From contig JBMFRC010000046.1 of the NCBI GenBank assembly GCA_049968235.1, positions 1-796 on the forward strand: DNA of 796 nucleotides, given 5' to 3'. A model generated the notes under the pieces. It was given only the letters and a program-made list of their open reading frames with translations, did no database searches and was not told the DNA's origin. The DNA is from Candidatus Hydrogenedens sp. (GTDB taxonomy: Bacteria; Hydrogenedentota; Hydrogenedentia; Hydrogenedentales; Hydrogenedentaceae). Shown one piece after another: positions 1-796 of this stretch (its first letter is position 1; every line of letters begins with the position of its first letter). The position numbers and the translations under genes were made by a program.

Positions 1-388
1 GCTTTTGAATATATTTAGCTATTATATTAGCATCATACATTAATTCATAATTACTTTCTGGTAGTTTAATATTTTTTGCAGTAATATATACATTATCAGT
101 TTTATCAATTTTAAGTAGTTGTATTGGCTTTGTTAATATGTAATTAACATTGTAAGATATAAAGCCATCAGTAATCAATAGATTTGCAATTTCATTAAGA
201 ATTTTAGTTAATGGTTTTTCTAATGCATCAATAGTAGCAAAGTTTAATAGTTTTGCTCTAATGCTTTTTCTTTCAATAGCGTCATTAAGTTGAGTTACTA
301 AATCATCGTATTCAATATTGATTTGTTGATTAGAAGCATAAGTAAAATATTCAATTATAAAACCTTCTTTTTGAAATTTTGATAGCAT
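1..388 (-). CDS. 3'-truncated CDS for a hypothetical protein, with the N-terminal 129 codons in the window: MLSKFQKEGFIIEYFTYASNQQINIEYDDLVTQLNDAIERKSIRAKLLNFATIDALEKPLTKILNEIANLLITDGFISYNVNYILTKPIQLLKIDKTDNVYITAKNIKLPESNYELMYDANIIAKYIQK...
   Basis: By hand translation, the minus-strand frame with codons at plus positions ≡2 mod 3 has no TTA, CTA or TCA triplets anywhere from 499 down to position 1. The other two minus frames carry more than 30 stops between them over the same span. ATG at 386-388 (plus-strand 'cat') is the first canonical start downstream of the gene A stop. The ORF runs off the left edge, which explains why the ORF track omits it. It is co-directional with gene A and 76 bp downstream of it, and no strong SD precedes the ATG (...TTTTAAGATTGAA-ATG). 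Confidence 0.6.
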   Translation of the reverse strand, partial: MLSKFQKEGFIIEYFTYASNQQINIEYDDLVTQLNDAIERKSIRAKLLNFATIDALEKPLTKILNEIANLLITDGFISYNVNYILTKPIQLLKIDKTDNVYITAKNIKLPESNYELMYDANIIAKYIQK

Positions 389-464
389 TTCAATCTTAAA
401 ATTAATAAATAGATAGTTGTTATAGCTTCTGTATGGTAAAGTAAATACTAACATAAAAAATAAT
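389..464 (-). promoter_or_regulatory. AT-rich intergenic spacer between gene A and gene B, with a possible weak sigma70-like promoter. On the minus strand TTTACT (plus ~440-445) and TATAAC (plus 419-424) are separated by 15 bp. Alternatively it is simply the read-through region of an operon.
   Basis: Minus-strand sequence AAATTATTTTTTATGTTAGTATTTACTTTACCATACAGAAGCTATAACAACTATCTATTTATTAATTTTAAGATTGAA-ATG. Hexamer-like matches are common in DNA this AT-rich, and the spacing is suboptimal. No GC-rich hairpin follows the gene A stop, so transcription probably continues into gene B. Confidence 0.15.
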
Positions 465-796
465 TTATTGTGTATGCATTTTCTGTATAGTATCTTTTGC
501 TATTTCTTTTTTTGTTTTATCTATAGCAACATCTGCATCTATAAAATCTTTTATTGCATCTATTACATGAAATCTAATCTTTCTATGTCTGGCGAATTTG
601 AAATTACGTAGATGGAATAGTGTTCTTAGTATTTTATGCTTTATTGATTTGTATTTTATATATGTAGCTAGTATATCTTCATTCTTGATTGTCGAATACA
701 ATTGGTTTAAGCCAATGTAAATAAAATTTACTGATAATCTATCACCTCCATATGTAATGCCATAATCATCTGTATTGGCAATTACATATTTCTCAT
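465..796 (-). CDS. 5'-truncated CDS for a hypothetical protein, of which the last ~110 codons are in the window. The visible sequence is ...EKYVIANTDDYGITYGGDRLSVNFIYIGLNQ(L)YSTIKNEDILATYIKYKSIKHKILRTLFHLRNFKFARHRKIRFHVIDAIKDFIDADVAIDKTKKEIAKDTIQKMHTQ*. The C-terminus is basic and may be HEPN-like (R-x6-H).
   Basis: By hand translation, the minus-strand frame with codons at plus positions ≡0 mod 3 is open from the window edge (796) to TAA at 465-467. The ORF track begins at TTG (699-701) only because that is the first start-like codon. The 32 codons upstream of it are stop-free in roughly 24% GC DNA, where about 9% of random codons would be stops, and they read as plausible protein. No Shine-Dalgarno-like sequence precedes the TTG. 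I therefore take the true start to lie off-window to the right. Codon usage (ATA, AAA, AAT, TTT rich) matches the neighbouring ORF. Confidence 0.6.
   Translation of the reverse strand, partial: EKYVIANTDDYGITYGGDRLSVNFIYIGLNQLYSTIKNEDILATYIKYKSIKHKILRTLFHLRNFKFARHRKIRFHVIDAIKDFIDADVAIDKTKKEIAKDTIQKMHTQ

What the first reader, a model, noticed from the sequence alone, without database searches (positions are those of the whole stretch)
1..388. An ORF absent from the supplied track fills the left half of the window
One minus-strand frame is completely free of stop codons from 499 to 1, in DNA where random frames hit a stop roughly every 11 codons, and an ATG sits at 386-388. Most of the window would look non-coding if one trusted only the track, which drops this ORF because it lacks an in-window stop. 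This protein is the downstream partner of gene A in a two-gene minus-strand unit.
Basis: seen in the sequence. Interest (0 to 1): 0.55.

Follow-up and report, generated by a model that had tools for sequence, protein, structure and literature searches.

The report
Partial phage gene of unknown function

Summary
The minus-strand frame is open from 499 to 1 (P about 7e-8 at this composition). The ORF tool omits it only because it runs off the window. It is a real gene. dN/dS is 0.19 against a 92.6%-identical contig. Relatives at 94% DNA identity continue the frame to 286 aa. NCBI already annotates it as a partial hypothetical protein (151 aa).

Two parts of the interpretation need correcting. 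First, the start is ATG 454-452, not 388-386. Codon 23 is N, T, K or F in other lineages, while the N-terminus ML[VIL]F[TS]LP[YF][KR] is conserved across lineages with synonymous codon changes. Second, gene A and this ORF are conserved neighbours in two lineages only. Each has its own start-proximal motif, tGCA-N7-9-TAAATTA-N5-6-ATG.

The window is the whole 796-bp contig. It was binned into a Hydrogenedens MAG, but relatives place it in a large myovirus-like genome (contigs up to 125 kb) with split multisubunit RNA polymerase genes.

Function is unknown. There are no Pfam, PHROG, NCBIfam or PDB hits, and AlphaFold confidence was poor. The layout (globular N-domain, N/S/T-rich linker, conserved acidic C-terminal helix) and the shared motif suggest an early or middle docking protein. 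That part is inference.

The parts
1..454 (-). ORF B: the N-terminal 151 codons (454..2) of a ~286-aa protein. Base 1 is the first base of codon 152, and the frame runs off the contig.
   Evidence: Open frame. Identical to NCBI MGC8739801.1, a partial hypothetical protein of 151 aa. dN/dS is 0.19 against L001, with 20 synonymous and 18 non-synonymous differences, Fisher p = 1.8e-6. Full-length homologues are 286 aa (L001, L004, L014) and 268 aa (L009/L016).
452..454 (-). Start codon ATG of ORF B (most likely).
   Evidence: It is the first start codon in the open frame. It is conserved in five lineages, is followed by the conserved peptide ML[VIL]F[TS]LP[YF][KR] with synonymous codon variation, and is preceded by the lineage's gene-start motif.
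386..388 (-).
   Evidence: The aligned codon is AAC (L001/L004), ACT (L005), AAA (L012) and TTC (L006). It is kept only in the closest relative, L014/P0011.
455..478 (-). Start-proximal motif on the minus strand: TGCAT (478-474), a 7-nt spacer, TAAATTAT (467-460), then TTTTT (459-455) directly before the ATG. It overlaps gene A's last codons and its stop.
   Evidence: The same tGCA-N7-9-TAAATTA-N5-6-ATG precedes many non-homologous genes in related contigs. There are 14 matches against 2.9 +/- 1.6 in random sequence, and 12 of 13 unique matches are followed by an ORF of at least 98 codons.
465..794 (-). Gene A: the C-terminal 109 codons plus stop TAA (467-465) of a ~175-aa protein. Its start lies off the window.
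   Evidence: Open frame to the window edge. Homologues are P0003 (175 aa, 93% identity) and P0004 (170 aa, 62% identity). NCBI annotates it as MGC8739802.1, partial, 109 aa.
500..502 (-). In-frame TAG that bounds the ORF B reading frame upstream, inside gene A's coding sequence.
   Evidence: Read directly from the sequence.

Best explanation
SHOWN. Window 454..1 (minus strand) is the 5' part (151 codons) of a real protein-coding gene. The full product is about 286 aa. It starts at ATG 454-452, 10 nt after the stop of the upstream gene A. The window is an entire 796-bp metagenomic contig carrying two truncated genes. Its relatives lie in large (at least 111-125 kb), AT-rich, myovirus-like phage genomes. 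Those genomes encode split multisubunit RNA polymerase subunits, a family-B DNA polymerase, 7-deazaguanine-pathway enzymes, tail sheath and tube proteins and a T4/phiKZ-type prohead protease. The 'Candidatus Hydrogenedens' label is therefore most likely a binning artefact. The protein has three parts: a ~150-aa N-terminal domain with predicted mixed alpha/beta structure and near-neutral charge; a ~55-aa linker that is 54% N/S/T/Q; and a conserved acidic C-terminal module (net charge about -10) ending in the helix DL-x-[IL]T-[ED]E[ED][IL]-x-[ED]L[KQ][DS][FL]. INFERRED. The gene is expressed from its own start-proximal signal, tGCA-N7-9-TAAATTAT-N5-ATG. It shares this signal with the DNA polymerase, one RNA polymerase subunit, dCTP deaminase, QueE, GTP cyclohydrolase and an AAA ATPase gene, but not with the tail or protease genes. 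The fixed 5-6-nt distance to the ATG and the absence of a Shine-Dalgarno sequence fit an AT-rich -10-like phage promoter that gives a leaderless or nearly leaderless mRNA. This would resemble the early promoters of RNA-polymerase-encoding jumbo phages. A non-SD translation-initiation element is the alternative reading. On that basis ORF B is most likely an early or middle (DNA-metabolism class) protein. It would work by docking: the folded N-domain binds one partner or substrate while the flexible linker presents the acidic C-terminal helix to another. This is the layout of SSB, gp32 and gp2.5-type hub proteins. The gene-level statement has confidence of about 0.9. The functional inference has about 0.3.
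For: Coding status: the frame is open for 166 codons, P about 7e-8. dN/dS is 0.19, differences fall 9/8/21 by codon position, and Fisher p = 1.8e-6. The sequence is identical to an annotated NCBI protein. Homologues at 89%, 59% and 46-47% identity show the same architecture. Extension: L014 is 94% identical to the window over all 796 nt and closes the frame at 286 aa. Start. Phage context: with contigs of 111,608 and 125,652 bp. Mis-binning: near-identical or related tiny contigs sit in Hydrogenedens, Elusimicrobiales and Nanopusillaceae MAGs, and the window is 24% GC. Motif. It is on 6 of 7 recognisable DNA/nucleotide-metabolism genes and 0 of 4 recognisable structural genes, p = 0.015. The jumbo-phage early-promoter description, a ~10-nt AT-rich conserved motif centred near -10, is from PMC7598289. 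Domain charges and composition.
Against: There is no direct evidence of expression and no mapped transcription start, so the motif could be a translational element rather than a promoter. Phage origin is inferred from relatives, since the window itself carries only two unannotatable genes. The functional reading rests on architecture and on a small-sample association. There are no Pfam, PHROG, NCBIfam or PDB sequence hits, no tblastn hit in 50,697 phage records and no hit in IMG/VR. Both AlphaFold2 models were unreliable, with pLDDT 39.5 and 42.7. Foldseek gave nothing with E <= 0.001. The N-domain is not basic (pI 6.3), which does not favour nucleic-acid binding. N-rich low-complexity stretches can also be a by-product of extreme AT content.
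Confidence: 0.85

Rival explanations
1. One reading: the ORF starts at ATG 388-386 (a 129-aa fragment) and is translated as the distal cistron of an obligate two-gene operon with gene A.
For: The ATG exists. Two automatic gene callers chose the equivalent or a nearby internal start in relatives: P0007 uses GTG one codon upstream of it, and P0006 uses an ATG nine codons after the conserved start. A-to-B synteny is kept in two lineages.
Against: Met23 is not conserved (N, T, K or F elsewhere). The 22 upstream codons are conserved as protein with synonymous changes and dN/dS of about 0.19. The gene-start motif abuts ATG 454, not 388. A and B occur without each other in L002/L003 and in L015/L012.
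Confidence: 0.06
2. A chance open frame in AT-rich non-coding DNA, not a gene.
For: There is no database family and structure confidence is poor.
Against: P about 7e-8 for the open run. There is purifying selection. Homologues down to 46% identity keep the domain order and the C-terminal motif.
Confidence: 0.01
3. A virion-assembly protein (scaffold, core or internal protein) rather than an early/replication-class protein. In this reading the acidic, helical C-terminal half acts as a scaffold and is removed by the nearby prohead protease.
For: In L014 and L016 the gene lies about 2.7 kb from a T4/phiKZ-type prohead protease gene (Peptidase_S77/S80). The protein is acidic (pI about 4.7) with a long predicted C-terminal helix. 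Scaffolds are typically fast-evolving orphans (general knowledge).
Against: It is not adjacent to the protease or to any recognised capsid gene. It is separated from the protease by two convergent genes. It carries the motif seen on DNA-metabolism genes and absent from sheath, tube, tape-measure and protease genes. The N-terminal half is predicted to be mixed alpha/beta rather than all-helical.
Confidence: 0.2
4. A chromosomal gene of the bacterium named in the record (Candidatus Hydrogenedens sp.), not a phage gene.
For: The NCBI label of the source MAG.
Against: The same or related sequence was binned into three unrelated taxa, including an archaeon. All longer relatives are phage-like. The only genome-contig hit among 185,579 species representatives is another 573-bp orphan contig.
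Confidence: 0.03

Closest known systems
NCBI protein MGC8739801.1 (locus ACP5UA_14320), 'MAG: hypothetical protein, partial [Candidatus Hydrogenedens sp.]'
   Same: Identical 151-aa sequence on a 796-bp contig. It is the same object as window 454..2 on the minus strand.
   Different: Nothing differs in sequence. The public record gives no function, and its taxonomic label is probably a binning artefact.
Hub-type single-stranded-DNA-binding proteins: E. coli SSB, T4 gp32, T7 gp2.5 (architecture recalled from general knowledge)
   Same: The order of parts matches: a folded N-terminal domain, a low-complexity flexible linker and a conserved acidic C-terminal tip ending in a hydrophobic residue. 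The gene lies near a family-B DNA polymerase gene and shares its start motif.
   Different: No sequence similarity to any SSB, gp32 or gp2.5 family (Pfam, PHROGs, NCBIfam, PDB). The OB fold is unverified because the AlphaFold models were unreliable. The N-domain is not basic and has no Zn-binding Cys/His. This is a 'works like' lead only, not membership.
Early (virion-RNAP) promoters of RNA-polymerase-encoding jumbo phages such as phiKZ and AR9 (PMC7598289, PMC5312081)
   Same: A phage-specific, highly conserved AT-rich motif of about 10 nt recurs upstream of a subset of genes in a genome that encodes split beta/beta'-like RNAP subunits.
   Different: The sequence (TAAATTAT with an upstream tGCA) is different. 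Here the motif sits at a fixed 5-6 nt from the ATG, which implies leaderless or near-leaderless mRNAs, whereas AR9 5' UTRs are 26-491 nt. No TSS data exist, so promoter function is not demonstrated.
Unnamed protein clusters P0005/P0011 (286 aa), P0013 (268 aa) and P0020 (298 aa as called) from ENA, JGI and NCBI metagenomes
   Same: True homologues at 89-92%, 59% and about 46% identity, with the same three-part architecture and the same conserved N-terminus and start motif.
   Different: They are full length. None has a name, a Pfam domain or a described function.

Membership tests
Protein-coding gene (real CDS) | Long open reading frame beyond chance | tested here: met
   166 stop-free codons, with a stop expected about every 10.6 codons; P about 7e-8.
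Protein-coding gene (real CDS) | Purifying selection at the codon level | tested here: met
   dN/dS is 0.19 against L001 and L004. Differences by codon position are 9/8/21. Fisher p = 1.8e-6.
Protein-coding gene (real CDS) | Conserved homologues whose frame closes at a comparable length | tested here: met
   286 aa (L001/L004/L014), 268 aa (L009/L016) and about 274 aa from the conserved Met in L015.
SSB / gp32 / gp2.5-type ssDNA-binding hub proteins | OB-fold (or gp32/gp2.5-type) DNA-binding core recognisable by sequence or structure | tested here: not met
   No Pfam, PHROG, NCBIfam or PDB profile hit. The AlphaFold2 models were too poor to judge the fold (pLDDT 39.5 and 42.7). Foldseek found nothing.
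SSB / gp32 / gp2.5-type ssDNA-binding hub proteins | Disordered linker followed by a conserved acidic C-terminal tip | tested here: met
   The linker is 54% N/S/T/Q. The C-terminal module has net charge of about -10 and a conserved terminal motif in three lineages.
SSB / gp32 / gp2.5-type ssDNA-binding hub proteins | Binds single-stranded DNA | not testable with these tools
   Needs EMSA or fluorescence anisotropy with purified protein.
Jumbo-phage early (vRNAP) promoter | Conserved AT-rich ~10-nt motif recurring upstream of a subset of genes in a phage that encodes multisubunit RNAPs | tested here: met
   TAAATTA-N5-6-ATG occurs 14 times against 2.9 +/- 1.6 expected, and 12 of 13 unique sites are at ORF starts. 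Split RNAP genes are in related contigs. The definition is from PMC7598289.
Jumbo-phage early (vRNAP) promoter | Motif centred about 10 nt upstream of a mapped transcription start of early genes | not testable with these tools
   No transcript data exist. Only a functional-class proxy was possible (6/7 against 0/4, p = 0.015).
Phage scaffolding / internal core protein | Encoded in the head module next to protease or major capsid genes; largely helical | tested here: inconclusive
   The protease gene is about 2.7 kb away, with two convergent genes between. The C-terminal half is predicted helical but the N-terminal half is mixed alpha/beta, from low-confidence models.
Stop-codon-recoded phage (TGA as sense) | Recurrent in-frame TGA in conserved genes | tested here: not met
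   The single in-frame TGA in L006 (953-955) lies in a ~38-nt segment that recurs in intergenic DNA. The better assembly L015/P0020 has an intact frame. Other L006 genes use TGG for Trp.

The most novel reading that the evidence does not exclude
There are two linked readings. First, tGCA-N7-9-TAAATTAT-N5-ATG may be a previously undescribed promoter class of an uncultured, deeply divergent lineage of large phages that encode RNA polymerase. It would fire at or within a nucleotide or two of the start codon, producing leaderless mRNAs for the early/DNA-metabolism gene set. Second, ORF B may be a new-fold replisome or transcription hub protein that recruits partners through its acidic C-terminal helix.
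Probability: 0.25. Interest if true: 0.5.

Novelty: new member of a known kind. Interest (0 to 1): 0.25.

Why it matters
The result is mostly housekeeping. A stop-to-stop ORF track hides both genes of a short contig, and the real start can only be found by comparison with relatives. It also flags a probable binning error: phage fragments have been deposited under Hydrogenedens, Elusimicrobiales and Nanopusillaceae MAGs. The more interesting by-product is the start-abutting motif shared by DNA-metabolism genes in a barely sampled lineage of large phages that encode RNA polymerase. If it is a promoter, it gives a handle on the transcription programme of phages that have no cultured representative.

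Tried and rejected
- **Cultured-phage searches:** blastn of the window and tblastn of ORF B and gene A against 50,697 phage records found nothing.
- **Exact-DNA scans:** searches of IMG/VR and of the GTDB representatives found nothing.
- **Profile-guided scans of IMG/VR:** scans for ORF B and for gene A found nothing.
- **Profile-guided scan of genome contigs:** it returned only another 573-bp orphan contig.
- **Family and structure-sequence searches:** Pfam, PHROGs, NCBIfam and PDB profile searches gave no credible hit for ORF B or gene A.
- **Exhaustive HMMER search:** among 1.84 billion representatives there were four real family members including the window's own protein. A fifth hit, a eukaryote-like repeat protein (E = 8.6e-4), was rejected as spurious.
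- **AlphaFold2:** two runs, full length and N-domain, gave pLDDT 39.5 and 42.7 and were unusable.
- **Foldseek against viral structures:** no hit at E <= 0.001 and TM below 0.4.
- **L002 positional analogue:** the 217-aa gene downstream of gene A in L002 was tested as a diverged orthologue and rejected. BLASTP gave E = 0.17 and hhalign gave probability 0.2%.
- **TGA recoding:** this idea came from an in-frame TGA in L006 and was rejected.
- **Shared N-terminal targeting peptide:** no other protein in the related contigs carries ML.F.LP.
- **Other scans:** there is no sigma-70-type promoter or intrinsic terminator near the junction in the window. No tRNA or Rfam family was found in the window or related loci.
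- **Literature look-up of sample accessions:** no paper found.

Full report
**1. Observation**

The window is 796 bp with 24.1% GC. On the minus strand, the frame read from 499 to 1 has no stop in 166 codons. It is bounded upstream by TAG at 502-500. At this composition a minus-strand codon is a stop with probability 0.094, about one per 10.6 codons. An ATG sits at 388-386. The mechanical ORF list has four short ORFs and omits this frame, because the tool does not list ORFs that run off an end.

Two things were missed. The first start codon in the open frame is ATG 454-452, since no ATG, GTG or TTG lies between 499 and 455. 'Gene A' is also truncated. Its frame is open from 794 to TAA 467-465, giving 109 codons, not the 78-aa TTG ORF in the track.

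**2. It is a real gene and already annotated**

A word-indexed search of 5.8 billion proteins returned an identical 151-aa entry: NCBI MGC8739801.1, 'MAG: hypothetical protein ACP5UA_14320, partial [Candidatus Hydrogenedens sp.]', on a 796-bp contig. The window is therefore the whole contig. Gene A is annotated next to it as a 109-aa partial protein.

Related contigs were recovered through gene A and ORF B homologues.
- L014 (6.3 kb, 39x coverage) is 94% identical to the window over all 796 nt.
- L001, L004 and L008 are about 92% identical.

In all of these the frame continues to a 286-aa product.

Against L001, ORF B shows 20 synonymous and 18 non-synonymous differences. dS is 0.27, dN is 0.05 and omega is 0.19. 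Differences by codon position are 9/8/21, and Fisher p = 1.8e-6.

An exhaustive HMMER scan of 1.84 billion representative proteins found only four real family members including the window's own protein. The others are at 59%, 47% and 46% identity. A fifth, spurious hit was a repeat protein. The family is genuine but very small.

**3. The start codon**

By contrast, the first nine residues from ATG 454, ML[VIL]F[TS]LP[YF][KR], are conserved in five lineages, as is the following YLFINFK stretch in most of them. Codon usage there is freely synonymous: Leu as TTA, TTG, CTA or CTG; Pro as CCA, CCG or CCT; Thr/Ser as ACT, ACG, AGC or AGT. The 22-codon extension has the same omega (0.19) as the rest, though on only four differences.

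Automatic callers disagreed. NCBI used the equivalent of 454 for the window. Other callers chose internal or over-extended starts in relatives.

The ATG at 454 is also directly preceded by the motif described in section 5. The start is therefore 454-452, 10 nt after gene A's stop. The window holds 151 codons of ORF B, not 129.

**4. Where it comes from**

The longer relatives are phage-like.
- L002 (16 kb; gene A homologue at 62% identity) carries tail sheath and tail tube genes, a split RNA polymerase beta/beta'-like subunit, a dCTP-deaminase/dUTPase-family protein and a QueE-like radical-SAM enzyme.
- L009, L010 and L016 come from contigs of 36-112 kb, and the same protein is on record on a 125,652-bp contig. 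There gene A (68% identity) and ORF B (59% identity) sit between a family-B DNA polymerase, GTP cyclohydrolase I and a tape-measure/lysin gene on one side. On the other side are a T4/phiKZ-type prohead protease (Peptidase_S77/S80), an RNA_pol_Rpb1_2-containing subunit and an AAA ATPase.
- L015 has the ORF B homologue next to an RNA_pol_Rpb2_6 subunit.

The nearest cultured relatives of these RNAP and DNA polymerase proteins are only 22-32% identical. Neither ORF B nor gene A hits any of 50,697 phage records or IMG/VR.

Related orphan contigs have been binned into Hydrogenedens (twice), Elusimicrobiales and a Nanopusillaceae archaeon. One sequence family in three unrelated bins, at 22-24% GC, points to mis-binned fragments of an uncultured large phage rather than a Hydrogenedens gene. 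This is an inference from relatives, because the window itself has no diagnostic gene.

**5. A start-abutting motif, relevant to the 'two-gene unit'**

The junction sequence TAAATTATTTTTT-ATG is conserved even where the proteins have diverged to about 46% identity.

Printing the 45 nt upstream of every called gene in the related loci showed the same element in front of many unrelated genes. The element is tGCA, 7-9 nt, TAAATTA, 5-6 nt, ATG. It precedes an RNAP subunit, the dCTP deaminase-like gene, QueE, GTP cyclohydrolase, DNA polymerase, the AAA ATPase, gene A, ORF B and several unknown genes. Gene A of the window's own lineage has it too (L008 and L014).

TAAATTA-N5-6-ATG occurs 14 times in 36 kb of non-redundant sequence, of which 13 are unique. 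First-order Markov random sequence gives 2.9 +/- 1.6, with a maximum of 8 in 300 trials. Twelve of the 13 unique sites are followed by an ORF of at least 98 codons.

The motif is on 6 of 7 recognisable DNA/nucleotide-metabolism genes and on none of 4 recognisable structural genes (sheath, tube, tape measure, protease). Fisher p = 0.015 on a small sample. Motif-bearing genes have no Shine-Dalgarno sequence, while a few other genes, including the two convergent with ORF B, have strong AGGAGG.

A review of RNAP-encoding jumbo phages states that each has its own AT-rich conserved motif of about 10 nt centred near -10 of early-gene start sites. The motif is presumed to be recognised by the virion RNAP (PMC7598289). 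The motif here fits that description. It differs in abutting the ATG, which would put the TSS at or next to the start codon and give leaderless mRNA. AR9 5' UTRs, by contrast, are 26-491 nt (PMC5312081).

A non-SD translation-initiation element is an alternative I cannot exclude without 5'-end data. Either way the motif marks gene starts. It supports ATG 454 and shows that ORF B has its own initiation signal, overlapping gene A's last codons and stop (window 478-455).

Synteny is only partial. A-to-B with a 10-nt spacer holds in two lineages. ORF B follows a divergent gene in L015/L006/L012, and gene A is followed by an unrelated 217-aa gene in L002/L003.

**6. What the protein is**

No Pfam, PHROG, NCBIfam or PDB profile hit was found.

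Alignment of the family shows three parts.
- An N-terminal domain of about 150 aa. This is what the window encodes. It has pI 6.3 and no Cys, His or Trp.
- A linker of about 55-70 aa that is 54% N/S/T/Q and poorly alignable.
- A conserved acidic C-terminal module with net charge of about -10. It contains DIN-x-[LI]...L-x-P-x-L and ends in DL-x-[IL]T-[ED]E[ED][IL]-x-[ED]L[KQ][DS][FL].

AlphaFold2 with the five available sequences gave pLDDT 39.5 for the full length and 42.7 for the N-domain. Only a rough secondary-structure picture is usable: strands and helices in the N-domain and a long helix in the C-terminal part. Foldseek returned nothing meaningful.

My best functional guess is an early or middle docking (hub) protein whose acidic C-terminal helix recruits a partner. 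This is the layout of SSB, gp32 and gp2.5-type proteins, as recalled from general knowledge. The gene's proximity to a family-B DNA polymerase gene and the shared motif fit that guess.

This is a 'works like' hypothesis at about 0.3 probability, not a family assignment. The defining DNA-binding core was looked for and not found, and the N-domain is not basic. A scaffold or core protein is the main rival, at about 0.2.

**7. Side issues resolved**

An in-frame TGA in the L006 homologue suggested stop-codon recoding. This was rejected on four grounds.
- The better assembled L015/P0020 has an intact frame.
- L012 also has an intact frame.
- Other L006 genes use TGG for Trp.
- The TGA lies in a ~38-nt segment that recurs twice in intergenic DNA of L015.

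A chimeric assembly or a small insertion is the likely cause.

**8. Verdict**

It is an ordinary, already annotated hypothetical gene fragment from a probably mis-binned phage contig. The proposed start is wrong by 66 nt, and the 'two-gene unit' is only a partly conserved neighbourhood. Interest is low to modest. The modest part comes from the shared start-abutting motif in an uncultured lineage of large phages that encode RNA polymerase.

Noticed in passing
window 455-478 (minus strand); L002, L009/L010/L016, L014, L015, L012 gene starts: A bipartite motif, tGCA-N7-9-TAAATTA-N5-6-ATG, abuts the start codon of many unrelated genes. These are mostly DNA/nucleotide-metabolism and transcription genes, and none has a Shine-Dalgarno sequence. 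The count is 14 against about 2.9 expected. It is either a candidate phage promoter giving leaderless mRNAs or a non-SD initiation element.
   Followed up: partly
L002 upstream of genes at 5825(-), 7750(-), 14150(-), 805(+); L014 6291(-); L016 19047(+): A second recurring upstream element, TTTAATTTTTTTG(C/T), lies about 20-40 nt before the ATG of other genes, including the tail sheath gene and large unknown proteins. The TTTTTGC part also sits upstream of many TAAATTA motifs. It may be a second promoter class or a shared upstream element.
   Followed up: no
L016 8759-9459 (between the DNA polymerase gene and gene A); also L008 164-674: An ORF-poor gap of about 700 nt upstream of gene A holds four tandem 14-16-nt iterons (AAAC[TA]AAG[TA]TGCAAAAAC, 9027-9090) and scattered GTTGCAA[AT]ACAAAA copies. 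This looks like an origin or operator next to the polymerase gene.
   Followed up: partly
L006 921-975 (TGA at 953-955); L015 minus strand near 3350 and 3423: The L006 homologue of ORF B is interrupted by an in-frame TGA. The TGA lies inside a ~38-nt segment that recurs in intergenic DNA of the same phage. The better assembly (L015) is intact. This points to a chimeric low-coverage assembly or a small insertion, not recoding.
   Followed up: yes
whole window; P0002, P0010, P0007 contigs (512, 825, 573 bp): Near-identical or related orphan contigs of this phage family are deposited in MAGs labelled Candidatus Hydrogenedens (twice), Elusimicrobiales and Nanopusillaceae archaeon. This is probable mis-binning of AT-rich (22-24% GC) phage fragments.
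   Followed up: partly
window 465-794 (minus strand): Gene A is itself an orphan: about 175 aa, basic (pI 9.3), His-rich, with a conserved KYVIA..DDYG..YGGD.L.VNFI.IGLN core. It has no Pfam, PHROG or NCBIfam hit, and the ORF track shows it only as a 78-aa TTG ORF.
   Followed up: partly
L014 1538-4064; L016 10828-13343 (convergent with ORF B): The two genes convergent with ORF B (87-90 aa and 732-743 aa) are the only ones nearby with strong AGGAGG ribosome-binding sites. The larger has weak heptosyltransferase-like hits (E about 6e-4, far below cutoff). They may form a different expression class or a host-derived module.
   Followed up: no
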